DNA from: Chrysomallon squamiferum | Taxonomy: Eukaryota > Animalia > Mollusca | DNA length: 64,000 bases | Direction: 5' to 3' | Assembly: GCA_012295275.1 (NCBI GenBank) | Contig: CM022666.1 | Coordinates: 7,998,001-8,062,000 of the forward strand | Shown here: piece by piece, positions 7,103 to 57,971 of the stretch | How positions within the stretch are numbered: the first letter of the stretch is position 1 | Layout: each line of letters begins with the position of its first letter | The notes under the pieces: model-generated | What the model was told of the DNA's origin: nothing | Databases searched by the model: none | The model's input: the letters and a program-made list of their open reading frames with translations, nothing else | Program-made: the position numbers and the translations under genes

Positions 7103-7184
7103 CGCTGTGAGTAGGATTTGAACCTACGCGGGAAAATCCCATTGGATTTCGAGTCCAACGCCTTAACCACTCGGCCATCACAGC
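7103..7184 (-). tRNA. tRNA-Ser(CGA), copy 1
   Basis: Reverse complement is GCTGTGATGGCCGAGTGGTTAAGGCGTTGGACTCGAAATCCAATGGGATTTTCCCGCGTAGGTTCAAATCCTACTCACAGCG: 82 nt with acceptor stem, anticodon arm TTGGA-CT-CGA-AA-TCCAA, long variable arm and T-arm; T-run terminator follows. Confidence 0.96.
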
Positions 7185-7421: not shown

Positions 7422-7503
7422 CGCTGTGAGTAGGATTTGAACCTACGCGGGAAAATCCCATTGGATTTCGAGTCCAACGCCTTAACCACTCGGCCATCAC
7501 AGC
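7422..7503 (-). tRNA. tRNA-Ser(CGA), copy 2
   Basis: Identical 82-nt sequence to copy 1. Confidence 0.96.
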
Positions 7504-7734: not shown

Positions 7735-7816
7735 CGCTGTGAGTAGGATTTGAACCTACGCGGGAAAATCCCATTGGATTTCGAGTCCAACGCCTTAACC
7801 ACTCGGCCATCACAGC
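7735..7816 (-). tRNA. tRNA-Ser(CGA), copy 3
   Basis: Identical 82-nt sequence to copy 1. Confidence 0.96.
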
Positions 7817-9294: not shown

Positions 9295-11667
9295 TCAGTT
9301 ACCAGGTGGGGCACTTTTAGTACCTTTACGAGCCCGCTTTCCCTTTTTGGGCGTAGTCGGAGAACGCTCTGGTTCTTCCTTTATCGGCCGATCTCTCGGT
9401 TCCCTCTCCTTGTGATGCGACTGGTTGTCGTAGACGATGTTTGCCTTCTGTCTCAGATTCTCCCATTGTCTCGGGAAGCCGAGCACAATCCTGTTATCCG
9501 ACACGTTCAGATGCTTAATGGCTGGAAGCTTGCAGATACTTTCTGGAAGAGTTTCTAAAATATTGTCGGAAAAGTCCAGTATCTCCAGGTTCCTCATCCG
9601 TTCGAATTCTCCAGGTAGCGTTTTGATGTCGTTGCCGGACGCCAGCAGCACCTTCAGCCTGTACAGGTAGGGGAAATCTGTTGGCATTTGGTCGATGTGG
9701 TTGTTTGAGACGTTGAGATCGCGCAGCGAAGCCAGGATGTCGATTCTGTCCTGGGGAAAGTTCAAAAGTTCATTGCTGGAGAGGTTGAGGTGGATGAGTT
9801 TGTTGAGATCACCGAAATCGTCCGGCAGGAGTTTCATTGCGTTGAACGACATATCCAGGTCCTCCATCGATACGAGTTTCAAAAGGCCCGGGCTGAATTC
9901 GGTGATGGCATTGTTGGAGACATTGAGTTTCTTCAGCTTCGACAACGATTGTAGTTCAATGGGAATCTCGGTCATATCGTTGAAGCTCATATCTAGATTC
10001 TGCAGTGCTCGCAGTTTGCTGATGCTGTTAGGAAGAACTCGGATGCTGTTGTTGGAGATATCGAGTGTGGCAAGGAGACGGAGGTTGAACACTGACGGAG
10101 GAATTTCGTCAAGTCCTAGGTTGCTGATCTCCAAGTGGCTGATATTTCTCAAATGATCCTTGTCTCCGATCACAACCAGCACCGACTTCAGTTCCAGTGG
10201 ATTGTAAGTTAACGGGTTGTCGGAAAGAAACAGCGTGGCCACGGGTTTGGGCACGATAAGTTCAGTGAAAGCGTTGCTGGACACGTCCAGCGTGTGTAGC
10301 TGGTACATGTGGTCTATACTCTTTGGTATGAAGGCAATCTCGTTGTTGTTCATCTTGAACACCTCAAGGTTGCGCAGTTTGCGCAGGTCTGAAGGAATGG
10401 CAGCTAGTCGATTGTTAGATATATCCAGAGTCAAGAGAATCTGGTCCATGCCGACGGACTCAGGCAGGACGCTCAGTTTATTCTTCGCCACGATCAAAGA
10501 TTTCAGTGTTTTTATACTGCCAACCGCTTCTGGCAGCTCTTTGATGCCATTGTCAGAGAGATCGAGCGTCTTCAGTGATTTCATTTGATGTATCTCGTCT
10601 GGGACTACCTCGATGCTGTTCGAAGATAAATACAAATGCTCCAACGACGGCAAGTTGACGGCGAACTTCATCGAATTGAGCTTGTTTCCGGAGAGATTAA
10701 TCGTTTCGATGTATTTCAGATCGTTTATCCCTTTCGGAACGAACTCGATAAGGTTGTTGGCCATGTTGAGGACTTTGAGTCTGTGCAGCTTCTCCATGTC
10801 GTTGGGTAAGGCCACTATCTCGTTGTGGGAGGCGTCAAACGAGTCCAGTGCATAACCGAGACTACAGATTTCGTCCGGAAGCACCTTAATGCGATTGTAC
10901 GATACGTCCAGATGACTCAAGTATTTGACCATTCCTATCTGCGGTGGAAGTTCCTCCAGGGCATTGTGGGACAGATTCAACCACGTCAAGCATCGAAGTC
11001 TGTCCACCGAATCGGGAATGGTTGCCACGGAGTTATCGGACAAGTCGATCCTTTTGATGATAGGGTTTTTAACGGTTGCCGGCGGCAGCTCTGTTATTCG
11101 ATTGCCCTTCAGGTCGACAAAACCCGGCAGCTCATAAAGTCCTTTCTTCAGCGACTTGATGATATTGTGCGACGCGTCCAGATAAACTAACGAAGGCGAT
11201 TTCCCTATATTCTTCGGAAGCGCTCGGAGTCGGTTGTTGGCTGCCATCAGCCTGGTGAGTGCGGTCGCCTTGTGGATGGCGCGAGGAAGAGACTTGATGC
11301 TGTTGTTGGTCATCTCGAGCACCTGCAGCTTCTTCATCTTCGACACCGTGGCCGGGAACGTCGTCATGTTGTTGTTTCTGACGTCAATCAGTTCGACGTT
11401 CTGCATGGCGGCCAGAGACTTGGGCAGCTTCTTGATTCTGTTGTTCTCCGCTGTGAATTTCACCGTCAGCTCGCACAGCTCTTCGTTCGAGTAGATCTCA
11501 ATGGGCAGACGGACCATGTTGGCCGTGCCGAAGTTCAAGTGTACTTTCTTCCCGTCTGGCAATCGCTTGATGTAGATTTTCTTCAGAGGCTCCGGCAAGG
11601 AGATGATCTTGCTGCCTGGACCCGTGGCAGGGGGAGGCTTTTCTTCCTTCTTCCGACGTTTGTTCAT
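9295..11667 (-). CDS. Intronless leucine-rich-repeat-only protein, 790 aa (~28-30 23-residue LRRs; SHOC2/LRRC40/LRRIQ4-type repeats)
   Basis: Uninterrupted ORF with LxxLxLSxNxIxxLPxxIxxL repeats from about aa 65 to 745 and basic N- and C-terminal tails; clearly more GC/CpG-rich than flanks; minus-strand acceptor (ttttag) at 11706-11705 just upstream of the ATG. Confidence 0.93.
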   Translation of the reverse strand: MNKRRKKEEKPPPATGPGSKIISLPEPLKKIYIKRLPDGKKVHLNFGTANMVRLPIEIYSNEELCELTVKFTAENNRIKKLPKSLAAMQNVELIDVRNNNMTTFPATVSKMKKLQVLEMTNNSIKSLPRAIHKATALTRLMAANNRLRALPKNIGKSPSLVYLDASHNIIKSLKKGLYELPGFVDLKGNRITELPPATVKNPIIKRIDLSDNSVATIPDSVDRLRCLTWLNLSHNALEELPPQIGMVKYLSHLDVSYNRIKVLPDEICSLGYALDSFDASHNEIVALPNDMEKLHRLKVLNMANNLIEFVPKGINDLKYIETINLSGNKLNSMKFAVNLPSLEHLYLSSNSIEVVPDEIHQMKSLKTLDLSDNGIKELPEAVGSIKTLKSLIVAKNKLSVLPESVGMDQILLTLDISNNRLAAIPSDLRKLRNLEVFKMNNNEIAFIPKSIDHMYQLHTLDVSSNAFTELIVPKPVATLFLSDNPLTYNPLELKSVLVVIGDKDHLRNISHLEISNLGLDEIPPSVFNLRLLATLDISNNSIRVLPNSISKLRALQNLDMSFNDMTEIPIELQSLSKLKKLNVSNNAITEFSPGLLKLVSMEDLDMSFNAMKLLPDDFGDLNKLIHLNLSSNELLNFPQDRIDILASLRDLNVSNNHIDQMPTDFPYLYRLKVLLASGNDIKTLPGEFERMRNLEILDFSDNILETLPESICKLPAIKHLNVSDNRIVLGFPRQWENLRQKANIVYDNQSHHKEREPRDRPIKEEPERSPTTPKKGKRARKGTKSAPPGN

Positions 11668-11811
11668 TTTGTACTCGTGTGTGTTCTCCTAATCAGTTCA
11701 TCATCTAAAATAACAATAATAATAATAATTATTATTATTATAGTACTACTAGTAGTAATGATAATAATAATAGTAATAAAAGTAATAGTAGTAGTAACAG
11801 TAGTAGTAGTA

Positions 11812-23990: not shown

Positions 23991-24155
<165 letters not shown>

Positions 24156-24427
24156 CATTTTTCTGAAATTAATATCTGAGAGATATCTGATTATGTACAT
24201 AAATATAAATATATTGGATCTTAATTTTATATTATTATTATGGCCAACTCAAGTCCATACTAACCATGATCGGGCCCCTAGGCTCTCAGTTTTTCACCCC
24301 AGTAACAGAAAGAGAATCATCAGAATGCAACGACACGATGGTCCTCGGAAAAACAATTGACGGGACCCTAAGATTCAGCCTGGTCAGACTTATGAATAAT
24401 ACGACCATCGGCCGAAATCTGTCGTAG

Positions 24428-24760
24428 AAATGAATGAATGAATGAATGAATGAATGATGATAATATGACCTAATGAAACAAAATGAATGAATGAATGAAT
24501 GAATGAATGAATGATAATATGACCTAATGAAACAAAATGAATGAATGAATTTAATGAATGAATAAATGAATGAATGATGATAATATGGCCTAATGAAACA
24601 AAATGAATGAATGAATTTAATGAATGAATGAATGAATGAATGATAATATGGCCTAATGAAACAAAATGAATGAATGTCTTAATTAATTATGTTGAGATGG
24701 CCAAATGAAACGGATGAATGAATGAATATTTTCTAATACAGCAAAATGAATGAATACACT
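24428..24760. repeat. Compound (TGAA)n minisatellite with interspersed tgataatatg(a/g)cctaatgaaacaaaa units
   Basis: Four to five copies of the spacer unit separated by TGAA runs. Confidence 0.85.
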
Positions 24761-24785
24761 ATTATTTTATGAATAGAAAAAAAAA

Positions 24786-24824
<39 letters not shown>

Positions 24825-25339
24825 GCTTTAATTTTTTTTTTAACATGACCAGAAAACTTTTTAGCACTAGCGACTATATAGGACTCCATATCTCTACACA
24901 AAAAAATTAAATTAAAAAGTGTTCTTAAACGATCTTCTAAACTGTTTCCTGGTAGACCTACTTGTTTCTGATGTTTATAAAAACGGAGCCAAAAATAACA
25001 GCTTTTTTGCGAGCAAGACGTAAAAAAAAAAAAAAAAAAAAAAAGGTTAAAGATAGAGAAGATTAAAAACACAAATATTTCGTGGAACTGAGTTTGTGCG
25101 TCATTGCAGGCTGAAAGTTTTGAAACCGAAGCTGTATTTATCAGTAAGAGCAAAGATAAATTAACGAAGGTCGGGGTTTGAAAGTGACGTACTTCCATTA
25201 GCGGGCTGTAAGCGTACACCATCTCTCCGACACCAGTCTATCAACAGGAGATAACCACCATCTTCAGAAGACGACGCACTAACAATCCATCTTGGTACTG
25301 GAACCTGCAATTTCACGAGCGAGTCACGCACACACGCAA

Positions 25340-25504
25340 CTTTAAATACAGAGTGCGTGAGAGGAAAGAGATAGAACAAAGAACAAAAGTGTTTGTTATT
25401 TCGTGCATTGCTCATTCGAGTTTCTGATTTTCAGGAGTAACGTTGTTTGGAAAGTTTTCATAACCCAAACGGTTACATTGTTGTTGGATTCTAACGTTAA
25501 AGAG
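25340..25504 (+). promoter_or_regulatory. Putative TATA-like box and non-coding first exon of the Argos-like gene
   Basis: TTTAAATA at ~25341 in a CpG-richer patch and a strong donor AAGAG|GTGAGT at 25504/25505; the next exon starts at 26906 after TAG, one base before the ATG. Confidence 0.5.
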
Positions 25505-26035
25505 GTGAGTACCGTCCTTTTATTTTTTATTATTAGTATTTTTATAATTTTTTTTTTTTTTTTTATGGTTGAAGTTTTAATACCCACGCATTGCTGGTTG
25601 AAAAGATCAAAATGAAAATGTCAAATGTATAATATGAAGGTTAACATGTAGAAGATGAATACCATTTTACTTTAAAATGTCCTTTGTAGATGAATTTACG
25701 ATTATGTACTTAAACAAATATTACTGCTTCAAACCATCTGTATTCTAATTCGTGCAGATGTTGTCAGCTGAAAACAGAAATATTTGTATAACATGGTAAA
25801 TACTTTTAAAATATCTCAAACATTCGCGCCCAGTGTGTATAATTGTTCATCCTCCATTTCTTGTATCAGTGTCACCTGTTTACGTTTATATATATATATA
25901 TATCTAAATACACGGTTACATGATATCAAGAAAGATTTTAGTTTCAGTGTTTTGTATATAATACAGTTTTAAATTATGAATGCGATTTTCATGGGAAAAT
26001 CTCACAATAACTTAAAACTATTAAAATAATGAAAC

Positions 26036-26906: not shown

Positions 26907-27029
26907 ATGAAGTGGTGGATTTCTGCAGCTGTCCTTACAGCTCTTCTCAATTTTCTCTCGGCTGAAATTCCCGTCTTTATTGTTAACGTAAGTATATTTG
27001 ATTTTTTCTCAAGGATTATAAGTGAATTA

Positions 27030-27111
<82 letters not shown>

Positions 27112-27195
27112 TGATGATGATGATGATGATCATTATAATAACAACAACAACAACAACAAAATTAATAATAATAACAACGATGATAATAATAACAA

Positions 27196-27234
<39 letters not shown>

Positions 27235-27255
27235 TAATGAATTAAAAGATTAGTA

Positions 27256-27306
<51 letters not shown>

Positions 27307-27376
27307 ACTATTAAATTTTTTTTATATTTATTGTTACTATCATTAATAGTTATCATCATCCTAGACGCTGATTTTA

Positions 27377-27441
<65 letters not shown>

Positions 27442-28281
27442 GCAATAATAACAATAACTTCAGCAATAACAAAATTAAATTACTATTACTATTATAAAAT
27501 TATTATTATTATTATTTTTTTTAATTATTATTATAATTTTTAATTTTTAATTTTTTTTTAAATTGTCAGCGTGATTCAGGCAGTCTGGAATGTCGAGATC
27601 GCTCCGTCTGCGCTGACGTGTACAACTTCACGCGGACGTTGAGGTCGGGGAGTCGTCAGGAGGTGCGCATTGTGAAGAACTGTCGTTGCCCTAACACCAA
27701 CGACGGCGAATGTCCAATCGTAGACAACCACATGCTCCACGCCAGCACCATGCACAAGTGAGTAGCAACGTCATTCGGCCGAATAATCGATCAGTGAAAT
27801 CAATCAATCAGTCGATAGTTCTTTCGTTCATTCGTTAGATCGATAGTTCTTTTGCTCATTCGTTCGGTCGATAATTCTTTAGCTCATTCTTTTGTTCGTT
27901 CGTTCTTTCATTCACTCTTTCGTCCATCCATCTTTTCATTCATTCATTCATCCATCCTTCATTCCTTTCTTTCATTCATCCATTCATTAACTCGTTTCGC
28001 CACTGATTCATTCGTTCATTCTTTCATCCATCTCTGCATCCATTCATTCCATCTATTAACGCATGTATTTATTCATTAATTCCACTGTGATTCATTCATT
28101 CTTTCACTCATCCACCTTTCATCCATTCACTGGTTAAAACAGCAACAAAAACTCCCCTGACAGTAAAACAGCGTTTGAATAGTGTAGGCGAACAATTTCT
28201 GCAAATTATCTGTCATTACTTTAAATAGCGAATTATTAACATTTGCTTATTGTTTTCTTAGCATAAATCAAATTGTATGCA

Positions 28282-28331
<50 letters not shown>

Positions 28332-28467
28332 TGTTGTTGTTGTTGTAGTTGTTGTTCTTCTTAATATAAATATTATTATTGTTACTATACTGTTGTTATT
28401 ATAAATATTATTGTTATTATTATTTTTGCTGCTATTGCAGTCGTTGTTACTGCTGTTGTTAATGTAT

Positions 28468-28515
<48 letters not shown>

Positions 28516-28779
28516 GACTATTACTATTATTATATATTATTTTCTCATTAAAGCCTAACAACATTCTCTGTACTTCCAAATGATTGGTTTGTTTCGGCGA
28601 TCAAACTTTTCCAGTAATAAAGTATGATAATAATTTTGTTTTCTATACGTTTCAGACAGTACCTGTGTCAGCCGGTGGACACGTTGCCGATGTGCACGGA
28701 GGCGTCGCAGTCGGCGGAGGACATGGTCGAGGGTGACGAGGAATTCGACTTTTATAACTACTGGAGGGTGATGATGATG

Positions 28780-28819
<40 letters not shown>

Positions 28820-28934
28820 TGATGATGATGATGATTATAGTAATAATAATGATGATGATCATAATAATGATGATAAATGCAATAATGATAATAATGACAA
28901 TAATAATAATAATAGTAGTAATAATGATGAGATA

Positions 28935-29002
<68 letters not shown>

Positions 29003-30665
29003 GATAATAACATTACAATAATGATAATGATGATGGTGATGATAATAATAATAATGATAACAATAGTAATATTAATAACAATGATGATGATGATAATAAT
29101 AAATATAGTGATGATGATAGTAATAATAAATAATAATAAAATGCAAATCGCTGTGAGTAGGATTTGAACCTACGCGGGAAAATCCCATTGGATTTCGAGT
29201 CCAACGCCTTAACCACTCGGCCATCACAGCTGTTATATTAGTTGTCGGTTATACTGGCCAGTGTATTTTGATTGGGCATCTCTGGAACTGCTTGACCAAC
29301 TTCAGTGATGTTACACTCCTTTACAGGGTTTTCAAACATGCCTTTTTCAGGTCAATAGTAGGTCACGGTCGAAACAAAGGTCACAGTAGGTTGAACATTC
29401 AGTAAAATCAAACCATACAATTAGGTCATTTTACAGTTTTATATATATGTACACACAGATACAAGTTGAGGTTCAAGGTCAAAATCTGAATACAAATAAG
29501 CAAAAATAGAAGTAATTACCAATAGTGAACTTCACTGCATGTCAGGCAACCTGTTTAATTTTGTCCTGAAATATTTACAGTCCGATATAACAGGACTACA
29601 CGCTGAATAAAATTAAATTTGGATGAAAATAAAAATGTTGAAGGTTGGATTCTTTAATCCGAGTACACAATCTTCTGATAGTGTTTTCCTTGTTCATCTT
29701 CCTGCAACAGTCGTACATCATCTTCATCTTCATCTGCTATCATTTTGTGAGTAAGGAAGGTTGCTGCGTTCAGAATTGTGTCATTTGCAAAGAGCAGTGC
29801 AGGTAGTGTTGTTCTTCTTGCACGAGCAATGACCCTGGCAAGATGACTTGCAGCCACCTTTGAGCAGTTCCAAGACAGCAACTGGTGCTGGTTTGTAGAG
29901 ACATTGGACTGGGACACACTCGTTTCCATTTTCCATTGTGCTCTAGGGGCAGCAGGCATGGATGAGGTATGGTACAGCTTTTGTCCCTCAAAGCCACAAA
30001 AAAGTTGGTTCGTGAGATATGAGGTATCAGTGTTGCTTTGGTGGAAGGGAACGTCTTGTCGTCCATATGCCTAGACCTGAACAGTTCCCAGTGCAAAACT
30101 GGAATAGTAGTTGCACTTACAGAGCTGTATACTGAGCAGTCAACGTCTTGATGGGCCACCGTTCACCAGCTCACTGTCATTTCACTGAGGTGGCTGAACA
30201 AATGTTATGCAACAGTTTCTTCAGATACTTTCTCTGACTGTCTCTCAGTTTTTTGTTTTTGTTATATTTTCCTTCAGGATAGATATATACATGTGGTTGA
30301 AATTTCCCAATCCCATAAATATACATATGTATATTTCTGCATTGAAACAGTTAAAAGTTACCTTTACCTTGACCTTTTTGCATGACGTTGACCTACTATC
30401 AACCTGAGACATGTTCCAGATTGTCAGGCATGTTTGAAAATCCTGTAATGGAGTTTAACACATCATTGATAGTAGTTCCAGAGATATGCTATTTTCTGTA
30501 ATTTTCATGAGTGACGGCGGTCATCTTGGATTTTTGGCTTTACAGGGATCTAAAAATTTGTCACGTATGATTTTTGTTCAGTTCATACCCAAATAAAATA
30601 AATCAATCACTATCTCATTTTGGCCCTCAAATTCCATGTAAAATCGAAATACATGGCGTCTACTC

Positions 30666-30705
<40 letters not shown>

Positions 30706-31012
30706 TTATTTAAATACTTTTAGTTTATATTCTTCTTTTTGTTGTTGTTGTTATTGTTGTTGTTGTTGTTGTTATTATTATTATTATTATTGTAAACGTA
30801 CGGAAGTGTTTTAACAAAATACGAAACTAAGACTAACTTTCTAATTTCAGATAAACTGCCGTTGTCCACGTCACAGTGAGCCGGTAGAGCCAATCCCCGG
30901 ACAGCTCGAGCGCGCCACTCAGTGGAGACACATGAGGCCTGACTGGGGTAGACACATGTTCATCCACGAGTACATCTGTGACAACGAGTACGGCCGAAGA
31001 GAAGACAACTGA
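26907..31012 (+). CDS. Secreted cysteine-rich Argos/giant-lens-like protein (180 aa, two Argos-type domains)
   Basis: Exons 26907-26987, 27570-27757, 28656-28767 and 30851-31012 are all GT-AG and phase-consistent. Translation: MKWWISAAVLTALLNFLSAEIPVFIVNRDSGSLECRDRSVCADVYNFTRTLRSGSRQEVRIVKNCRCPNTNDGECPIVDNHMLHASTMHKQYLCQPVDTLPMCTEASQSAEDMVEGDEEFDFYNYWRINCRCPRHSEPVEPIPGQLERATQWRHMRPDWGRHMFIHEYICDNEYGRREDN*. It has a signal-peptide-like N-terminus and 10 Cys with motifs Cx5C, CRCP, CQPVxxLPxC and CRCPRxS as in recalled Drosophila Argos. Confidence 0.85.
29149..29230 (-). tRNA. tRNA-Ser(CGA), copy 4 (intronic, antisense to host gene)
   Basis: Identical 82-nt sequence to copies 1-3. Confidence 0.96.
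29276..30667 (-). mobile_element. Decayed, internally deleted DNA transposon, probably Academ-like (Cys8/CXC C-terminus)
   Basis: Imperfect inverted repeats 29276-29385 and 30369-30489 (gcatctctggaactgc...ttttcaaacatgcct vs aggcatgtttgaaaa...gttccagagatatgc). One intact end reads TAGAGTAGACGCC on the minus strand at 30667. Internal frameshifted coding remnant: LHWELFRSRHMDDKTFPSTKATLIPHISRTN...PAPVAVLELLKGGCKSSCQGHCSCKKNNTTCTALCK*HNSE. Confidence 0.75.
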
Positions 31013-31049
31013 GAAAAAAGATTGTTCATGAACAAGTAATATTTGTTTT

Positions 31050-32130
31050 TAACTATACTACTACCACTGTCACTACAACAACACTACTACCACCACAGTC
31101 ACTACAACAACACTACTACCACCACAGTCACTACAACAACACTACTACCACCACTGTCACTACAACAACACTACTACTACCACAGTCGCTACAACAACAC
31201 TACTACCACCACTGTCACTACAACAACACTACTACCACCACAGTCACTACAACAACACTACTACTACCACAGTCGCTACAACACTACTACTACCACTGTC
31301 ACTACAACAACACTACTACTACCACTGTCACTACAACAACACTACTACCACTGTCACTACAACAACACTACTACTACCATTGTCACTACAACAACACTAC
31401 TACTACCACTGTCACTACAACAACACTACTACTACCACAGTCACTACAACAACACTACTACTACCACAGTCACTAAAACAACACTACTACTACCACAGTC
31501 ACTACAACAACACTACTACTACCACTGTCACTGCAACAACACTACTACTACCACAGTCTCTAAAACAACACTACTACTACCACTGTCACTGCAACAACAC
31601 TACTACTACCACAGTCACTAAAACAACACTACTACTACCACAGTCACTACAACAACACTACTACTACCACTGTCACTGCAACAACACTACTACTACCACT
31701 GTCACTACAACAACACTACTACTACCACCACTGTCACTACAACAACTCTACTACTACCACAGTCACTACAACAACACTACTACCACTGTCACTACAACAA
31801 CACTACTACTACCACAGTCACTAAAACACTACTACTACCACAGTCACTACAACAACACTACTACTACCACTGTCACTACAACAACACTACTACTACCACT
31901 GTCACTACAACAACTCTACTACTACCACAGTCACTACAACAACACTACTACCACTGTCACTACAACAACACTACTACTACCACAGTCACTAAAACACTAC
32001 TACTACCACAGTCACTACAACAACACTACTACTACCACTGTCACTGCAACAACACTACTACTACCACTGTCACTACAACAACACTACTACTACTACTCCT
32101 ACTACTACTACTCTTACTACTACTACTATT
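31050..32130. repeat. ~29-bp minisatellite (cactactactaccac[a/t]gtcactacaacaa)n, roughly 35 copies
   Basis: Directly visible tandem unit starting about 40 bp after the Argos-like stop codon. Confidence 0.95.
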
Positions 32131-45798: not shown

Positions 45799-46477
45799 AT
45801 GGCAGCACTTTTGAAGAAACGAGCGCTGGCAGAGTTCAGTTATGTTATACAGGTACAACAGATGATTATTCTCTTTACAAATTAAATTTAAATATTAAAA
45901 ATTAAATATTTCACGTTCAGTGTTTTATTATTAGAGAGAATAACAAAAATAAAAAATAAAAATACACACAAAACTAATAATAATAACAACAACTACAAAT
46001 ATTATAATTATATAAATTATTGTACATGAAATGATGAATAGATTACCAAAAACATTTACCTATGTCATTTATGTCCTGACATTGACAGTGTATTTAATTA
46101 ATGTTTATATAAATAAAAGAATTATTATGTGAAATACATCTTTAACAGATTTAACGAATCTTGCTTTATTAACTAATAGATTTAAAATTAAATTTTTGTT
46201 GTTTATTTTATTTGTTCCTTCTTATTATTATTTAAAAAATTTATTAGGAGGAAATCAGGGCTATAAAATATAAATCTAAATAAAAACATGTGTCAACCTG
46301 ATTAAGTTATGAGAAGTCTATATAATGTTATTTTACACTGTTGCTATTTAAATTAATTGTTCTGTTTACTTTATTTTATTTTATTTTTTGATTTTATCAA
46401 GAGGAATCCATGGCTCTGAAAACAATGTTGTTTTACTTTGCCATTATTTATATTTATTATCCCTTTTTATTTTTTTA

Positions 46478-46518
<41 letters not shown>

Positions 46519-48169
46519 TTTTTTTCCTCAGGAGGAACCCAGACCAGTCAAAAAACTTAGACTTGTTCAAAAACCACCACTTGCCAGAAGTCCACCTCAA
46601 TTTGATAAGTGCAACATCTTCCCATGATGCTCTTCTGTTACTGCTCAAGTTTGAGAACTCTTTGCCTATTGATGTTGATGCAGCCAGTGGGGTACTGGGA
46701 GAGTTGTTGGATCACTACACTAGAGAGAAGGAACCGATTGTTCGATGTAAAATAATTTCTTTACTTGGCGAGCTGTCGAAAATACCAGGTTTTAACACTG
46801 AGCTTGTTATTGATAATTTGATTACTTCAAGCCAAACAGAAAGTAAGTGTTTCAAAGCAGTGTTTTTCAAAAGATAGTGATGGATATTTATTTTTAATTT
46901 TTAATTTTATTTTCTATTATTATTATTATTATTGTTTTTATTGTTTTCTGTCATTTTTTGTAATTTGTAATATTTGGTCAGAATCATTAGAAATATTTGC
47001 TTGAATGAACTGAATTTTTTAGGATAAAGGGCATATATTAATATTTAATAATTTATCAGTAATTGTTCCTTTAATATACATGCAGAGCATACAGCCATGA
47101 AAACTCGTATATAGCACACATGTGAACACAAACAAATATAAATAATTGCAAAATATACCTAAAAAGCATATATGTATATATAATACAGATCTATACTTTG
47201 TTATTGTTACTGTATTATTTCTCTCTCCTGACATTTACAAAAGAGTGTTACTGTCTGAATTGATTTTTAAAGATTTTAAATTTTCACTTCAGCTTCTCAC
47301 AAAGTTTGGAGTCAGTTACTGCACACACTGGGTACTCTTGGACAGTGTCAGTCATTGAACAGTGGTCTGTGTCAGCAGATTGTAGAGGTGGCCAGACAGG
47401 TGAGGTAGATTAATTTGAAAGTGAGGTAAAAAAATAGCATAAGTAAATTTTACTTACTTCAGACTTAATATTTCATTTGTTTCTTATCAAAGTGTACCAG
47501 TATTTTGATGAGTTTTCTTTTCTTTATATTGACTGACTTATTTTCCCATTGTTTATTTTCTCATTTATTTATTTATTTATTTATTTGTTATTTTATATCA
47601 TGATCTAAAACTTAAATATGTATTATATATACTTCCAAATAATATTTTATTTGTAATTTTAATTAATCTTAGCAAATAATTAGATAGAAAATAAAATGAC
47701 AAGCACAATTAAATTGAAGAAGCTACAATTATTATGAATGTGTGTGTGTGTATATATATATCTAGACTATATATATATATATATATATATGTATTTATTT
47801 TCACATTTGTTTATGTATTTGTTTATTTATTTATATAATCAGCATCTGTCTGATCCATGCCATACAGTGAGAAGTGCATGTTTGAATGTTATTGGTTGTC
47901 TTGGATCTGTTGACCATAAACAGCTGAATGGATCTGAAGTGGATCTGCAGAGTCTACTCGCTGATTTTACCTGCGATCAGGATCCACGAGTCCGCACATG
48001 TGCAATCCAAGCCCTGGTAAGATCTGTTTTCAAAATCATTTACTCTACTTACTTGTTTGATAGAAAATCCTTTAGTACATCTTTTATATAAAAATGTACT
48101 CAAATCACTGGAATAAATTAGTTTTATTTTTATGATTCCAGGTTTTCTTCTTCCTATTATTATTATCAG

Positions 48170-48202
<33 letters not shown>

Positions 48203-51200
48203 CATCATCTTATTCTTATTCTTCTTACAGTTTTACTACTAGTATTACAACTTATTACTTCTACTATATTACTATTTCTATTACTGCTACTATTATATTT
48301 CTGTCACTAATACTATTAGTACAACTGCAACTACTATATTACTACTACTACTGCTACTACTGTCACTTCATACATTATTATTGTTGTTTTATTATTTTAT
48401 AATTAATTTTTTGTTTCAGCTTACATTTCATGATCGTGGTATACAGTTAGATATAGGCATTTACCAGCAGGCCTGTTCAGCTTTGAAAGACGATTTTGAA
48501 GATGTTAGACAGAAAGCAATCAAACTGATGTGGGTCTTGAGTCACCTGTATCCAGAAAGGTAAAAAAGTGATTTAAAAACCCCACCAAAAACCCACACAT
48601 ACATGTATTTGCACATACACATTCTACCCAAAGATATATACAGCACATGAACATACAGACATGCAAGCACACACAGACACACAAGACACACAAGTACATA
48701 TAAACACACAGAAACAGAAAATACAAATGGCAGATATACATCTGCTTTTATTGTCATATTAACAATTTTTAATATATATTTTAAAATAAAATCTTATGCT
48801 CTGAGATAATTTTTATTGTTATTTATTTCTTTGTTCATTCATTCTTCTATTACATTTTTCTTTCACTCAGTTTGGTACCAATCCCAGACTCTACAGAAGA
48901 TCTGCGACTCATTGATGACACTTTTGCCAAGATTTGCAACATGGTCAATGACATTTCGGTAAAGGTCAAAGTTCAAGCTGCAAATGTTCTGGTATGTTTT
49001 ACATGTTTTACATATTTTTTTTTAAATTTTTTTTCTGAATTAAAGTTAAGTAATATTTAAATAAAATACTTTTAACTGGAAAAAAATTGGTTAATTTTTG
49101 ACTGGGTTTGTATGTAAATAGCAAAGATTATTAAAGAAACTTTATTTCAATAAAATAATTGTTTTGTTTATTCATTATATTGCCTCCTTACTGTCTAATT
49201 TTTTTATTCATTCATTCCATTTTTATTTATGTTTTGTTTTATTTATTTATTTATTTACATTTTCCTCTTTCTCTCAGGGTTCTCTTCATCTTGTGAGTCC
49301 AAAGTTTCTAGAGCAGACGCTGGACAAGAAGTTAATGTCCAGTTTACGGGTAGGTTTAGATGAGTTTCTGTAAACACAGAATCAGACTATTTTATTATGT
49401 TTTTATTATCTGAAATGAAAAAGGACCCATGGAGTTACCTTACGAAATACATAATTAAAAGAAAGTTCTAAAATATTTGATTAAACTTGTGATCTAGTAA
49501 GAAAAATAAGATCTCTATCATTTCAAATCAGAATTTCCTTCAGATAAATACAAATACCTCGAAGCTTAATGATAAGAATTGTTTACTGAATGACAATGGG
49601 ATATAGCTCGGTGGCAGTCGGTGGTCAGATCAATTCATCTTGGTGGACCAGTTTAGCTGTTCCTCATTCCAGCTGTTCCTCATTCCAGAATTCAGCAACA
49701 AAGGCCATGTTATGTATGATGCTGTCTGTGTATGGAACATACAAAAGATAACTTACTGCTAATCAGAAAGAATAGCCAACAAAGCGACTGCAATTTTGTT
49801 TTGTTTTATTTATTTTCATTTTCATTTTCATTCTTATAACCTGTCACTCACTAATGTTGAATGTGAGTGTATTTGCTATTAAACTTTGTTTTTATTTATA
49901 TTATGCACTAAATAGTTTAGAGTAAATTATAGAAATTGTAGAAATTTCTAAGAATTGCATAATATTTGTCGCTTTATCATCATTGTTTTAAATACAGTTA
50001 AGAAATAATTTAACATAATGTAAATATATATTAATAAATATATAAATAAGGAAAGAAGTGATGATAAATTCAAAAGTTCGCTAAAGAAAGTAAATTAATG
50101 TGAATAAAAGAATGTGAAATTAATAAATAAAATGAAATTGAATGGATGAAAAAAACAAAATTAAATTAAATTTAAAGAAAAAAAAAGAGTTAAAATAAAG
50201 TAAAATCATAAATTATAATTAATTTCAGAGAAAAAAAAGTGCGCACGAACGGGCTCGTGACCTCTATCAGTCAGGTGAATGGTCAACTGGTCAGAAATGG
50301 GCGGACGACGCCCCACGGGAGGAGGTCAACCCTGAGAGTATTAACTTAATGGCTGTCGGGTCCTGTGGAGCTTTTGTACATGGACTGGAAGATGAATTTT
50401 TAGGTAAAAATCTCTATATTTCATTTATTATTATTATTATTGTTATTATTATTATTATTATTATTTTAGTTTACAAATAGTTTTATATAACCTGTGTATG
50501 TTATTTCAATCTACTATTTGTTTTTTTTAAATTAAATGTGTTGTTAATTTTTAAATACATATTTAACTTGTGAAACATTTAGACATGGTTTAAATTGTAT
50601 TTATATCTGAAAGTGTTGTTGCTGATTTTAGTATACAAGTTGTGGAATATTTGTATATGGAATAGAAAATAAATTTAGAGTAAATGAAAAATTCAAATAA
50701 TATCTTGGAAATAAAAAGAATTTCATGAAACCATTTATTCATACTGTGTCAGGTATATTTTAAGCACTTAAGATTAATAAAGAAATATAAAATAAAATTA
50801 TTTATTTTGAAAGTGTGAGTCATGTTTCATATTCATAATCAGAGCTCATCAAGTTTAGTGATAAATATATTCATTAAACTTGCAATATACATATATAATT
50901 TGAAATGTTGTCAAATATTAATTAATTTTGTTTTATTCATTTATTTCCATTGCTAAAACATAGAAAAATAATACTAATAAAATAAAACATAAGATTTAAA
51001 ATTTGTTTTTAAATTACCACGTTTGTTTTAGAGGTTCGAAACGCCACTCTCGACTCACTGTGTGAACTTGCAGCTCAGTCGCAGGTTTTTGCCAACATGT
51101 CGCAGGACAGCATCATCGACATGTTCAACGACGAAATTGACAGCGTGAGACTCAATGCAATAAACAGTCTGAAGAAAATAAGTCAGCACATCGCCATTAG

Positions 51201-51609
51201 ACAAGATCAACTGGAGATTATCCTTGGTGTTTTACAGGTAATTTTTGTCTGTCTGTCTGTATCTTAGTCTGTTTTATGTATTTAATTTTTTAATTAATTT
51301 ATTGTATCTGTTGGTATGTGTATTTATATGCTTGTCTGTGTGTGTGTGTGTGGGGGTTTATGTGTGTGTTTGAGATTGAAGTATGATGTGGGTTTTGGGG
51401 TGTTTTTTATGATCTCTTGTGTAATTGGTACATTTTACTGGAATATTCTTTTTCTATGAGCATAAAATATATTTTTTTGATAATTAAATTAATTAGAATT
51501 ATGTTTAATTTTTAATTTTTATTATTCATATTAGTTATATTTTACTCATGATTCAAATTTCTATTTCTAATTTTTATTAATCTTTATTTACATTATTTTC
51601 ATTCTATTA

Positions 51610-51640
<31 letters not shown>

Positions 51641-54600
51641 TTTATTTTTAATTTTCATTATTATTTTCATTATAATAATAATTAAATTATTATTATTATT
51701 ATTAACCTCAGTATTAAAAATTATTATTATACAGGATTTTTCATTTGAGACTCGTGAGGCTCTACGAGATATGCTTGGTGATATGAAACTGTCGACTAAG
51801 GACTGTTTAAACGACTGCATCACAGCTCTCCTAGTGAACCTCACTCGATACCCACAGGATCGGTCCTCTGTCTGGAAGTAAGTCAGCCACACTGGGCAGT
51901 CACTTTATTCGTACACATTAGATAGCTTTTAAGAATATCTGTACACATTTGGGAAGTGCACTGTACAAAGTATTCATCTGAAGAACTGTACATGAATTCT
52001 CCACTTTGTCTCTAAAGCTGTTGTCCTGTTCTAAACATATCCTATTATAGGCTTATAAGATAGCATATATGTCCTCTCTGGTTTATGGGAAGGTTATTTA
52101 CTTTAGTTTCTTCTTTGTAGTTTTGTGTTTACAGAAAAACATTTTTTTAATATTTTTTTTTTTTTACAGTTATTTATTATTTATTTATTTAAAAGATTCC
52201 TTTGACTTTTAAATTTAATTTTGTATTACAGGTGTACGAGAAATCTAGGTCTCAACCACCCTTCTTTTACCTTGACTTTGGCACCAGAATTTCTGTGTAT
52301 TCATCCGTACTTTAATACACCAGAACCCAACATGGATGACCCAGCTTGTATCCTTACAGCCTGAAGGTCAAGGTTATTGTAACAAAAGTTTGAACCCTTT
52401 TAATGTCATGTTTACATTTAAAAAAAAATGTCCAACTCAAATAAGGAAATAATTATGCCAGGTACATAACTGCTGAAGAAAATGTTGTGAAATAATTATT
52501 ATTATTATTTTTTTTTTTAATCTTTTCATTTTATTAATTTGTTAAAGATATATAAGTAAATATTTACTACCCTTAACAAACTCAGATATTGCTATTCTTT
52601 TGCTGATTTTTAATGCAGCGACAGATTGCCCAACTCTGATTCCACTGTTTCAGGACCATATTGTACGACATTACATGTACCTTCGAAACAGCATCCCTCA
52701 TCTTGTTCCTATTTTAAAGGTATAAACTGTTTTTATTTTGTGATCGTTAATTTTTTACACTGATGTTGTGATAGCTGAATTTTTACATTGATGATGAGAT
52801 AGTTAATTTTTTACATTGATCATGTGATAGTTGACTTTTTACACTGATCATGTGGTAATTCATTTTTTTCACTGATATTGTGATAGTTAATTTTTACACT
52901 GATGATGTGATAATTCATTATTTTTACGCTGATGTTGTGATAGTTAATTTTTTACACTGATGATGTGATAATTCATTATGTTTTCACTAATGTTGTGATA
53001 GTTAATATTTTACACTGATGTACAATCTGGTTTAGGCGTTAGAAACGACTAACATCTGCACAGAGGTTGAAGCTGTAGACTCTGGGATGAAGACTTCAGA
53101 GTTTCTGCGTCAGACTCTGGACAGACTAAACACTTTACATGTGATGGACAACTGCACAGCAGAGCAGCTTCTTAATACTACTGTCAGGTGAGTGTGGTTT
53201 TTTAATCTCTCTTATGGTTGAGGTTGTATGAGGGATCTGTTAGTATGAGTCTGTAAGGGTGTGTGCTTGCTTGTGAGCTTGTGTGTGTGTAAATAAATGT
53301 GTTTGTATATACATTTGTGTGAGTGTAATGTGTTTGTGTGTGCATATATGTGTGGTATGTGTATGTGGTTTGTATATGTGCAGCTGTGATGTGTTTGTGT
53401 GATTAAGTGTATGTATAATGTACAGACTGATTCAGGATTAAATAAATAATCAAAACAACTACTTTGCAGTATTTATTTATTTATTTGCAAGATTACATAT
53501 AATATACATAAATATTTTTAAAATTCCATTGTCATTTCCTGAGGCTTTTGACAATTTCATGTCAAAATATATATATTTGTTGTTGATAATTAATTCTTTA
53601 TTTTTTGTAAATATAACTTGGGTTTTTTATTTCTGAAATGGTCAGACTTACAGGATTCACTTTCATCATTGATGTTTGCAGATAAACAAGCAACAATAAT
53701 TTTTAATGAAAATAATATTTAATACAATGTCATTACAGGTTGAGGAATTGTTATCCAAAATTTCAAATCCAAAACTTTTGCTGAGCAGTAGAAATAACTT
53801 TTTATGCATATACAAACCCTATTTTATACACGAAATTAATAAAATTATTATTTTAAAAATCTGTCAGTCTGTGTAAGCTGTATTTGAAAAATAAATGGAA
53901 TTAATGTTTAGATGTCATTCTATTCTCATGCTATCTCTTTTTATTCCAAAATCCAAAACACCTCTGGTCCCAAGCATATTGGATAAAGGACTCTCAACCT
54001 GTATTAGCATCTCTTTAAAAAAAAAAATTCTCCCTCTTTCAGAGATCTTAAGAGAATTGCTGAGCTGGATTCCAGTGTTTCATCTTCAGCTGAATGTATC
54101 TGTCTGTTTTTACAGAGTCAGCTCATTCTTACACAGGTCAGTCCAGTTAATATGTGCTTTAGTACCTCTGTATTTTGACCCTACAAACTTACTCTCTCTC
54201 TCTTAATGATCTTAATTTTACAACAGTGACAGATTCTGTAGTTTGGGCTTTTTTCTTTAAATAATACCTGTGATTTTTGTCTTAATCCATTCAAAACATA
54301 TGACAGTTTCTGTAAATTTGGTTTTTTTTCTGTTTTTTTTTGTCAGTTGTTTCTCATTGTAAATGTGTTGGTTTTTACTTTTTTTTTTTTTTTTTGACCT
54401 ATACTTTTTTTTTTTTTTTTCAGTTACTTGCTCAGATGAAACATTCTTATGGGGGTTTGACAGCTTCTGACAACATTCTTGCCCCAATAGATAAAGTAAG
54501 TGTCAAAACCTCTGGCTACATTTCTGTTTACAATATCTTATTAATTTATTACTTGTTAAAATTTGATTGCATATTCTGTCCAGAATGTTGTCCCTGCCTT

Positions 54601-55318
54601 TGAGGATATCATTTTATTTTTATTTTTAAAAATGAAAATTGACATCAAAACAGAAAATTGTGTTTATCAGATTCAGTGGATTTGCTCCTTGTTTCTAGTT
54701 GATATTTTTAGTTGTTTTAATAAAAATTAATATTAATGAGGATGTTAAATCTGTAATCCCTTTTCTGAAATCTTTTCTGGGTCTGTATCCATGTTGTGTG
54801 TGTCTTTATGTATGAAAATATGACATTCTGTATTTCATTTAGATATCTATTCCTTTATAAAATAATTATGTTAATGTTGGGACAGACAAAATACTGACAA
54901 ATATTATAAGTTTACTTTTATCATTTAATTTTTTTTTAAATTTTTAAAATGTATTTAATTTTGTCTTTCTTTTATATTTGTATGTGTTTTTATTATTTAA
55001 TTTAATTTAATTATAATTACTTTTTTACTGTTATTACAATTGTTGTTGTTATTGTTATTTTTTTTATTACTACTGCTGTTATTGCTATTACTATTACTAT
55101 TATTATTATTTTTATTATTATTATTAATATTGTCATAATTATCATTATTACTGTTACTGCTTTTTACTATTATTAGATATTATTATTGTTAGTTATTATT
55201 ATTACAGTTACTGTTGCTATTATGATTATTACTATTATTCTATTATTATTACTATTGCTGTTATTATTACTATTATTATTATTATTATTACTACTACTAT
55301 TATTATTATTATTATTAC

Positions 55319-55354
<36 letters not shown>

Positions 55355-57971
55355 ATTATTATTATTATTATTACTACAATTATTATTATTATTATTACTA
55401 TTATTATTACTATTATTATTATTATTGTTGTTGTTGTTGTTATTTATCTAGATACTACAGCTTACTACCAAACTCCAGACACTGTATTTAGGGATCAGTA
55501 CACATGAACTTGGTCTGATTCGACAGACAGAACTGAAAACTTTGACACTTCAGCTTCGCGTCACACTCAGCAAAGGTTCCCTGTTTGAACAGTTCCGAGC
55601 CAGTGAGAACTACATGCAGTACCTTAAACAGTTCCAAAGGTCAGAGAAAATTAAAATAATTTATTTATTATATAACAGATTTTGTCATAGCATTCTTATA
55701 AATGAAATATTGTTGTTTTTGTTATTGTTACAGTTATTACTATCATCGTTGTTATTATTATTGTTACTGTTATTTTTACTGTTATTATTATTTTTACTAT
55801 CATTGTTATTTTTACTATCATTGTTATCGTCATCACCATAATCATTGTAATTACTTTATTATTACTACTGTTACTACTATTAGTACTATTGCAACTACTA
55901 CAAATGCTACAACTTACTACTAATGGTACAAATGCTAACACCACTGCTATTATTATTCGCAGTTTTTGTCAGTATTTGAATCACTCCAAGTTACACTGTT
56001 TTTTTCTTTTGTTTTTAGATGGGATGTTAAACATTCATTCATTCATCTATCTTTCATTCAGTCAGTTACAGTGTAATTCTTTTTGAAAGTGGATGCTAAA
56101 CTTTCATTCATTAATTCAGTCTTTCTTTCATCCCTCTACATTACAGTGTGATCTTCATATGTTGGGTGTTAAACATTCATTAATTTTGTTCATTTGTTTG
56201 ATCATATTATGAAATTCATTCTATTCAGTATAGGTTTTGGAACATTCATTTATTTATCCATTCATCCATCCATCTAACCAGTCATTCATCCAATCATTCA
56301 TCCACTCATTCATCCAATCATTCATCCACTCATTCATCCATTCATCCATTCATCCATTCATTCATCCATCCCTTCCTATTGCAGGTTCATCGAATCTAGT
56401 GACATATCCACTGACAACTTTACAAGTCACATCCTAACCTCTATGAGCAACGCCGATGCTAACAAACTGAACACCATCAGAAACATGGTGCAGTCAGCGA
56501 TGCCCCTGCTGAGCATCAGCTCGTTCCCACTCACCTATCAGATCAGAAAGGCAATAGTCACACTCAGTGACCCACCCCCGATATCAGACACCCCGATCAA
56601 GTTTGCTGCAGGTTTAACAGCAGCCATTCCTGTTGATGCTCTGATAGAGAATGTGGCAAACATTCAGGACATTAAAATTCAGGTGATTTATAAACACTTA
56701 CATATGTGTATTTTCAAAATGTATATATACAAAGATGTTTACACACATAAAATTAGAGATATACACACATAAGATGTAACTTGTATATCTTCCAGCAGTA
56801 CAGTATATTTGCATAAAAATAACGTGAAAAGAGTTGTTTTATACTAATTTAATATATACTCATGTATATTACCTATGATTGAAACAGTGTGGATATATTT
56901 GTAACTATTTGAGAGAATGTGTTTGTGTTTTTGTTTGTATGTTTGTGTGTGTAGGTAAGAGTGTGGGTGTTTGAATGCATATATTTGTGTCTATAAGAGA
57001 GAGATTTAAAAATATTAATATATGTTTTTTAATTATCTGAAACAACAAGATTAATATTTATAAATCATTTTAAAGTTGTTGTTTTTTTTTTTTTTTTTTT
57101 TTTAAGATTCGATATCCTGACCAGCAGCTGCAAGTGGTCACTCCCAGACACACGGACTTCAAGAAACTTGGACCTCTGCGACACAGACTAGTGACCAGTG
57201 TCCTCATATCTCATGCCCTGTGGTCAGGTGTGTAAATACAAACATCAGTTTTTAACAATCATTTTTATGTCTCTGTGTAATGTCATGGACAAGACTACCT
57301 CTAGACATTACTGCATGATCTCCAGTGTAATCACTTCAGTACATCATCACGAAGATGTTGTGTAATTCTGCTGTAGTTCAGAAGTCTGATGTTAAACTAT
57401 GATGCTTTGTCTTCAGGTTAAAGAATTTAGAAAAGACGATGAAAGCATTATATAGTAAACCTTGAGGATTCTTAATCCAAAGCTCTGAAATCAAAAAACT
57501 TACTGAACAACTGAGATTGTAAAATATTATATTTTCATAATAGATGTATGTTAACAAAGCTCAAATTTATTAAAAATATATAAAATACTCATAGATTATC
57601 TGCACAAGCTTTATACAAAATGTTTTGTGTTTAGACTTTGATCATATTTTAAGGCCAGAATCTCTTTAAACACCAAAATCCAAAACATTTTTAGTCCAAA
57701 GTATTTTACATAAGTGATCCTGGACTGGTATTAATATTGGGATTTATTTTTTGTTTTACTGGGTGTTTTTATTTCTTTGAAATGTATTTATTTTATTTTA
57801 ATTTTAAATATACCTTCTTTTTCTTTTTTCATTTTAATATATATGTTATATATATTTTTTTCTGTTTTAATTTTTAATTTTATTATATTTTATTTCAATT
57901 TTTTAAATTTTATTTTTATTTTTATTATTATTATTATTATTATTTATTATTATTATTATTATTGATTTTAT

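What the first reader, a model, noticed from the sequence alone, without database searches (positions are those of the whole stretch)
26907..31012. Hidden Argos-like (EGF-ligand trap) secreted protein in a probably non-arthropod genome, lacking domain 3
Seen in sequence: four small exons buried in microsatellites (no complete ORF in the track) splice into a 180-aa signal-peptide protein with Cys at 35, 41, 65, 67, 75, 94 | 103, 130, 132, 170. Established knowledge: Drosophila Argos has three disulfide-bonded domains (6+4+6 Cys) with motifs VC, CRCP, MCQPVHKLPVC and HCRCPRNS, and it clamps Spitz using domains 2 and 3; it is best characterised in arthropods, and centipede SLPTX11 toxins are recalled as related. 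Inference: this is a two-domain Argos-family member. It may represent an unrecognised lophotrochozoan EGFR feedback antagonist, or a family member repurposed for another ligand or as a toxin-like peptide.
Basis: partly seen in the sequence, partly recalled or inferred. Interest (0 to 1): 0.85.

Follow-up and report, generated by a model that had tools for sequence, protein, structure and literature searches.

The report
Two-domain Argos-like snail protein, conotoxin cousin
This snail gene is spliced exactly as proposed and encodes a predicted secreted protein whose family matches the first two domains of the fly growth-factor trap Argos; without the third domain it is likely not an EGF trap, but its exon layout matches a group of cone-snail toxin genes, so its family is likely the harmless stock from which those toxins arose.

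Summary
The gene is real. RNA contigs from four runs of one study give all three junctions to the base; the frame is 180 codons with the ten Cys listed. Its nearest relative is from the gastropod Gigantopelta (68%); 12 complete relatives from snails, Aplysia, bivalves and unnamed records are all two-domain. A family profile and models of two relatives hit Argos first, on domains 1-2 (E 3.6e-5; Z 12.1). But Argos-like 'two-finger' proteins of molluscs, with two-domain clusters, were published in 2025 (PMC12514838), and the EGF clamp needs domain 3, so the 'unrecognised EGFR antagonist' reading is weak. New here: intron phases 0-2-0, Cys per exon 0/5/2/3 and the exact codon of intron 3 match two-finger conotoxin genes (8 of 8 Lautoconus genes read), whereas the three-domain snail gene that paper compared has 0-1-0. 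This conserved family is therefore a better candidate for the toxins' non-venom source, and domain 3 was likely absent long before venom recruitment. No tree with conotoxins was built. Function is untested: likely an extracellular binding protein. The scan's earlier notes held nothing like it.

The parts
25090..25504 (+). Probable non-coding first exon (5' UTR); start approximate
26907..26987 (+). Coding exon 1: residues 1-27, predicted signal peptide, no Cys; phase-0 intron follows
   Evidence: junction to exon 2 in 3 RNA runs; hydrophobic N-terminus by Kyte-Doolittle, no SignalP run
27570..27757 (+). Coding exon 2: residues 28-90, Cys 1-5 of domain 1, long finger I hairpin, N-glycosylation sequon at 46; phase-2 intron follows
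28656..28767 (+). Coding exon 3: residues 90-127, last Cys of domain 1 and first Cys of domain 2; phase-0 intron follows
30851..31012 (+). Coding exon 4: residues 128-180 and stop; starts two residues before the Cys-x-Cys of domain 2; three Cys
   Evidence: junction from exon 3 in 4 RNA runs
31013..31333 (+). Probable 3' UTR running into a 29-bp minisatellite

Best explanation
The locus is a spliced four-exon snail gene for a predicted secreted, disulfide-locked protein of two Argos-type 'two-finger' domains, which likely works outside the cell by binding one conserved protein partner (a signalling ligand or a receptor ectodomain) with surfaces on domains 1 and 2, not by the Argos clamp. Shown: transcription and splicing, the 180-residue frame, the family and its two-domain length, homology to Argos domains 1-2. 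Predicted: signal peptide, five disulfides, the fold (models are of two relatives, not of the window protein). Inferred: a binding role, because non-Cys residues in finger I of domain 1 (D43, R49, G54, E58, R60, N64) and in domain 2 (Y125, H135, P138, R148) are kept in 11-12 of 12 relatives from snails to bivalves and no catalytic family matches; and that the family is the non-venom sister of the two-finger conotoxins, because their genes share its exon layout.
For: Splicing. Family; 12 complete members of 179-204 aa end 1-9 residues after their last Cys. Argos link: profile of 8 relatives hits only Argos below E 0.4 among 177,635 PDB sequences (E 3.6e-5), scoring 24.8 bits in the D1-D2 register and 4.0 in the D2-D3 register (E 0.0036 with 16 rows); Foldseek top four rows are Argos for both models; VIA-align Z 12.1, rmsd 2.7, 118 residues, and Z 9.7, rmsd 4.1, 111 residues, with conotoxin Tx33.1 second at Z 5.0 and all else under 3. 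Conservation. Domain 3 needed for Spitz binding: PMC12514838 discussion. Gene layout shared with conotoxins.
Against: No partner is identified and nothing was assayed. The window protein itself was not folded or scanned whole against Pfam. Expression data are contigs from one study and give no tissue or level. The family profile does not detect Tx33.1 at E 10 and no conotoxin came up.
Confidence: 0.55

Rival explanations
1. It is a minimal EGF-ligand trap: domain 2 plus domain 1, or two copies of the protein, would grip a molluscan EGF-type ligand and dampen EGFR signalling as Argos does.
For: Argos is the closest solved relative by sequence and fold. PMC12514838 speculates that some protostome Argos-like proteins modulate EGFR and notes EGFR pathways in molluscs. 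Strong conservation fits a conserved signalling partner.
Against: Domain 3, half of the Spitz clamp, is absent from the gene and from all 12 complete relatives; the same paper calls growth-factor binding unlikely for two-domain forms. Molluscs also have three-domain Argos-like proteins that are better candidates. Pfam Argos matches 1 of 15 relatives, at E 0.0077.
Confidence: 0.2
2. It is itself a toxin or defence protein of mucus or a gland, acting on receptors or channels of other organisms as two-domain conoidean and three-domain centipede relatives are thought to.
For: Same two-domain, ten-Cys, 0-2-0 layout as MMLFM conotoxins; the fold has been recruited to venom in cone snails, turrids and centipedes; an Atlas cluster named Turripeptide is the third feature hit for a bivalve relative, score 0.83, a lead only.
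Against: One copy in the 64-kb window; invariant non-Cys residues across gastropods and bivalves, the opposite of the hypervariable, positively selected toxins; the named relatives are from Gigantopelta, Aplysia, land snails, Babylonia, Batillaria and freshwater mussels, none a cone snail.
Confidence: 0.1
3. It is a structural or matrix protein (shell, scale, mucus or egg matrix) whose disulfide-locked hairpins bind matrix components rather than a signalling partner.
For: Secreted, acidic (pI about 5.3), disulfide-rich and, among named hits, mollusc-only.
Against: No repeats or low-complexity tracts typical of matrix proteins (own knowledge); single conserved gene; no paper in the library names these gene ids.
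Confidence: 0.1

Closest known systems
Drosophila Argos / giant-lens (PDB 3C9A, 3CGU; Pfam PF11581)
   Same: Predicted secreted; two-finger beta domains; 6+4 Cys of domains 1-2; profile E 3.6e-5 and Z 12.1 over both domains for a relative's model
   Different: No domain 3, so no D2-D3 clamp; no long flexible inserts; longer finger I; Pfam Argos not reached by the single exons or by 14 of 15 relatives
Protostome two-finger-toxin-fold (2FTX) proteins, two-domain cluster A of PMC12514838
   Same: Two domains, ten mature Cys with like spacing (window 5,23,1,7,18,8,26,1,37; cluster A example 5,21,1,5,19,8,25,1,34 counted by eye); a family member, Sinanodonta KAL3848362.1 / ACJMK2_019227, bears the accession and locus tag next to the cluster A example KAL3848361.1 / ACJMK2_019226
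   Different: The cluster A example itself was not returned by my searches, so it may be a sister subfamily; in the parts read the paper gives no gene structure or function for cluster A
Two-finger macro-conotoxins (MMLFM/Cerm08, 'Unknown'/Tand01, MLSML incl. Tx33.1 PDB 9FRQ, MARFL, unk2, E)
   Same: Two domains without D3; four coding exons with phases 0,2,0; MMLFM Cys per exon 0/5/2/3; intron 3 at the same codon; second-best fold match
   Different: Toxins are shorter (about 90-125 mature residues), venom-gland expressed, hypervariable and positively selected; intron 2 lies 3-9 codons before Cys 6 in toxins and 4 in this gene; no detectable profile match to Tx33.1
Three-domain Argos-like protein of Pomacea and Conus, and centipede SLPTX11
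   Same: Same domain fold and D1-D2 Cys pattern
   Different: Three domains; the snail gene has phases 0,1,0 with domain 2 whole inside exon 3, while here an intron splits domain 2

Membership tests
Argos (EGF-ligand trap) | Secreted protein with signal peptide | tested here: met
   Hydrophobic residues 6-26 and no later hydrophobic stretch; relatives start alike; no SignalP run
Argos (EGF-ligand trap) | Disulfide-bonded two-finger beta domains homologous to Argos | tested here: met
   Profile E 3.6e-5; models of relatives P0012 and P0005 match 3C9A at Z 12.1 and 9.7
Argos (EGF-ligand trap) | Three domains, with D2 and D3 forming the ligand clamp | tested here: not met
   Stop 10 residues after Cys 10; 12 of 12 complete relatives two-domain; no further family-profile or Cys-x-Cys-Pro match on + between 31000 and 46000
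Argos (EGF-ligand trap) | Pfam PF11581 at its curated cut-off | tested here: inconclusive
   No hit for four single exons; 1 of 15 relatives at E 0.0077; the spliced protein was not scanned whole
Argos (EGF-ligand trap) | Binds an EGF-family ligand and blocks EGFR | not testable with these tools
   No molluscan EGF ligand was at hand; needs a binding assay
Argos (EGF-ligand trap) | Induced by EGFR/ERK signalling (feedback) | not testable with these tools
   Only RNA contigs, which give no level or tissue
2FTX protostome proteins, two-domain cluster A | Two 2FTX domains with ten conserved Cys, secreted | tested here: met
2FTX protostome proteins, two-domain cluster A | Clusters by sequence with the cluster A example | tested here: inconclusive
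   Neighbouring Sinanodonta locus tag is in the family but the example was not among hits
Two-finger conotoxin superfamilies | Four coding exons with intron phases 0,2,0 and conserved Cys per exon | tested here: met
   Window 0,2,0 and 0/5/2/3; toxins
Two-finger conotoxin superfamilies | Hypervariable inter-Cys sequence under positive selection | tested here: not met
   Six non-Cys residues invariant in 12 of 12 relatives, five more in 11 of 12; no dN/dS computed
Two-finger conotoxin superfamilies | High expression in a conoidean venom gland | not testable with these tools
   Nearest relative is a peltospirid snail; tissue unknown
Two-finger conotoxin superfamilies | Sequence similarity to Tx33.1 | tested here: inconclusive
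   Not listed at E 10; fold match Z 5.0, Foldseek E 0.12
Centipede SLPTX11 | Three 2FTX domains | tested here: not met
   Two domains only; three-domain state per PMC12514838

The most novel reading that the evidence does not exclude
This conserved two-domain mollusc family is the missing non-venom source of the six two-finger conotoxin superfamilies: the toxins did not lose domain 3 on entering venom but were recruited from a gene that already had two domains and the 0-2-0 introns before gastropods and bivalves split, and whose unknown extracellular partner points to the toxins' still unknown target.
Probability: 0.55. Interest if true: 0.62.

Novelty: new member of a known kind. Interest (0 to 1): 0.45.

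Why it matters
PMC12514838 left the origin of six conotoxin superfamilies open because the only endogenous gene it compared had different introns, and it found no target for Tx33.1 in three assays. A conserved, non-venom, two-domain family with the toxins' own exon layout makes the origin testable with existing genomes and offers a route to the target class through the endogenous partner. It also shows that Argos-fold proteins without the EGF clamp have been kept across molluscs, so domains 1-2 have a job of their own. As a mere 'Argos-like protein in a mollusc' the finding is already in print.

Tried and rejected
Pfam on the four exons separately: no family at E 1; exon 2 against PDB sequences: only chance hits. 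Word-index search with exon 2 among longer proteins: 4 candidates, none scored; the unfiltered HMMER search found the family. Two of its 10 hits were dropped as repeat artefacts (P0008, a bacterial tandem-repeat protein; P0013, a plant low-complexity protein). P0006 (partial model), P0010 and P0014 (partial frames) and P0005 (altered tail) were left out of the count of complete relatives; P0017 (longer start of P0012) was left out of later alignments; P0015 was counted but replaced by P0024. No genome is held for this window, so synteny and paralogues outside 64 kb were not examined. Homodimer prediction for the bivalve relative: no answer, score 0.00; it counts neither way. Run X5 gave no laid contig. 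Third-domain exon or paralogue in the window: none by profile or motif. Capicua-type octamers (motif recalled; Argos is a Capicua target from own knowledge) cluster upstream, 25 of 66 in 24001-26000, but they are a GAAT satellite and 9 more lie at 56-58 kb: rejected as evidence of ERK control. ESM Atlas: first hit is the family's own mollusc cluster (0.95), Argos-bearing clusters follow at 0.83-0.87, leads only; its structure search did not list Argos. Rfam found only tRNAs. Literature searches found no paper that ties a two-domain non-venom family to these conotoxins or names five of the family's gene ids; subscription papers are not covered. Earlier-findings look-ups gave nothing on this family. 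No alignment or tree with conotoxin sequences was made, so that link rests on gene structure and Cys pattern.

Full report
Observation. Five runs hold exon 2. RNA contigs of 1066-1255 nt cover exon 2 and exon 3 exactly and their loose ends are the neighbouring exons: 3 of 4 runs (X5 laid nothing) and 4 of 4; X1-X4 are one study. Contig lengths imply a 5' UTR exon near 25090-25504 and 227-321 nt of 3' UTR (inferred). Only 30 nt of exon 4 were seen in RNA, so a rare longer isoform is not excluded, but no further matching exon lies downstream in the window.

Family. Single exons match no Pfam family. An unfiltered search with exon 2 gave 10 hits, 8 of them one family, and profile searches added six. 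Named members come from Gigantopelta aegis (68% over 135 residues; a peltospirid gastropod; sister to the window protein at 96/94), Batillaria, Babylonia, Aplysia, Bradybaena, Candidula, Potamilus and Sinanodonta, all annotated as hypothetical or uncharacterised. The host is therefore most likely a gastropod near Gigantopelta (inference). All ten Cys and D43, R49, G54, R60, H135, R148 are invariant in 12 of 12 members; E58, N64, A110, Y125, P138 in 11 of 12. The members other than Gigantopelta and the two bivalves carry four more Cys in the mature part; the window protein and the bivalve members keep ten.

Relation to Argos. A profile built only from relatives finds Argos as the sole good hit among 177,635 PDB sequences (E 3.6e-5; 24.8 bits in the domain 1-2 register, 4.0 in the 2-3 register). 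Models of the Potamilus protein (pLDDT 74.6) and the Gigantopelta protein (70.9) both return Argos first: Foldseek E 3.6e-5 and 2.5e-6; VIA-align Z 12.1, rmsd 2.7 over 118 residues, Argos residues 97-346, and Z 9.7, rmsd 4.1 over 111. Conotoxin Tx33.1 is second at Z 5.0 in both; everything else is under 3. The window protein itself was not folded.

What is known. PMC12514838 (read: main text parts 1-5 of 9, passages, supplement 4 and parts 1-2 of 3 of supplement 2; figures and the large figure supplement with S7 and S11 not seen, and they bear on intron positions and cluster membership) names this the two-finger-toxin fold, reports about 1800 protostome hits in 12 clusters, two of them two-domain, states that Spitz binding relies on domain 3, and judges growth-factor binding unlikely for two-domain toxins. 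Its cluster A example is the Sinanodonta gene whose accession and locus tag lie next to family member P0018. So a molluscan two-domain Argos-like protein is not new. The Argos mechanism is also stated in PMC5017282 (passages); the original Argos structure paper was not read.

What is new. The same paper found that five of six two-finger conotoxin superfamilies have four exons with phases 0,2,0, while the endogenous three-domain snail gene has 0,1,0 with domain 2 whole in exon 3, and concluded that a relationship is 'not readily apparent'. The window gene has 0,2,0 with the signal peptide alone in exon 1. I read exon sequences of these toxin genes in the Lautoconus ventricosus genome supplement (PMC8152183: supplement passages and 4 of 126 parts; main text not read) and counted by eye. 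Eleven loci were shown in full; eight list a start for the last exon (six MMLFM/Cerm08, two Tand01), and in 8 of 8 it begins in phase 0 two residues before the first Cys of the domain-2 Cys-x-Cys, the very codon of the window's intron 3; the transcript split shown for one Cver06 locus agrees, and the other two loci show no such exon. Intron 2 is phase 2 between Cys 5 and Cys 6 in the same 8, with the split codon 8 (five genes), 9 (one) or 5 (two) residues before Cys 6, and 3 in one Cver06 locus; the window has 4, within that range but not identical. Cys per exon are 0/5/2/3 in the three MMLFM genes given with a full protein and in the window. A phase-0 first intron goes against the phase-1 bias of secreted and conotoxin genes (PMC12621736: outline, passages, section 8). 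The layout seems family-wide: two partial frames from short contigs end at the intron 2 codon and the Batillaria model departs at the intron 3 codon (indirect). By eye, Tand01 toxins and the 14-Cys members share an extra N-terminal Cys ahead of intron 1 and a Trp-x-Gly...Cys finger tip; this was not scored.

Against that link: the family profile does not detect Tx33.1, no conotoxin appears, several Lautoconus models are pieced from other contigs or hold frame errors, no tree with toxins was built, and the introns of Argos and of the other clusters are unknown, so the shared intron could be ancestral to all and lost in the 0,1,0 gene. I put the origin claim at 0.55.

Mechanism. Shown: a spliced, conserved gene with an Argos domain 1-2 framework. 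Predicted: secretion and five disulfides. Inferred: an extracellular binding protein for one conserved partner, using finger I of domain 1 and domain 2 (0.55); an EGF trap by another geometry (0.2); a toxin or defence protein (0.1); a matrix protein (0.1). No binding partner was tested.

Verdict. Observation confirmed, interpretation partly supported. New member of a known kind, interest 0.45: the family type is in print, but its gene structure makes an open question on conotoxin origins directly testable. Searches behind 'not in print'.

Noticed in passing
window 29149-29230 (-), and 7103-7184, 7422-7503, 7735-7816 (-): Four identical tRNA-Ser(CGA) genes: three in a ~316-bp tandem array and one inside intron 3 of this gene, with about 60 bp of related flank.
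   Followed up: partly
window 29278-29343 and 30426-30485: An inverted pair of about 66 bp, 82% alike, brackets some 1.2 kb of microsatellite-free DNA in intron 3: possibly an old non-autonomous DNA transposon.
   Followed up: no
window 9295-11688 (-): An uninterrupted 797-codon frame made almost wholly of leucine-rich repeats.
   Followed up: no
window about 46400-56800 (+): Exons of an Integrator subunit 4 (INTS4) gene; Pfam INTS4_C at E 4e-11 for the frame at 56278-56772.
   Followed up: no
P0005 (Gigantopelta XP_041347492.1), residues 136-162: The RefSeq model matches the window protein up to the domain-2 Cys-x-Cys, then diverges and lacks the tenth Cys; likely a frame error in that model or assembly (inferred from protein only).
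   Followed up: no
window 24429-24677 and 27884-28129: GAAT/TCAT satellites upstream of the gene and in intron 2 contain many Capicua-type octamers (motif recalled); most likely ordinary microsatellite.
   Followed up: partly
window 28704: G>A difference in run X2, third base of an Ala codon, silent.
   Followed up: yes
window 31056-32127: 29-bp minisatellite, 37 copies, starting 44 bp after the stop codon and probably entering the 3' UTR.
   Followed up: no
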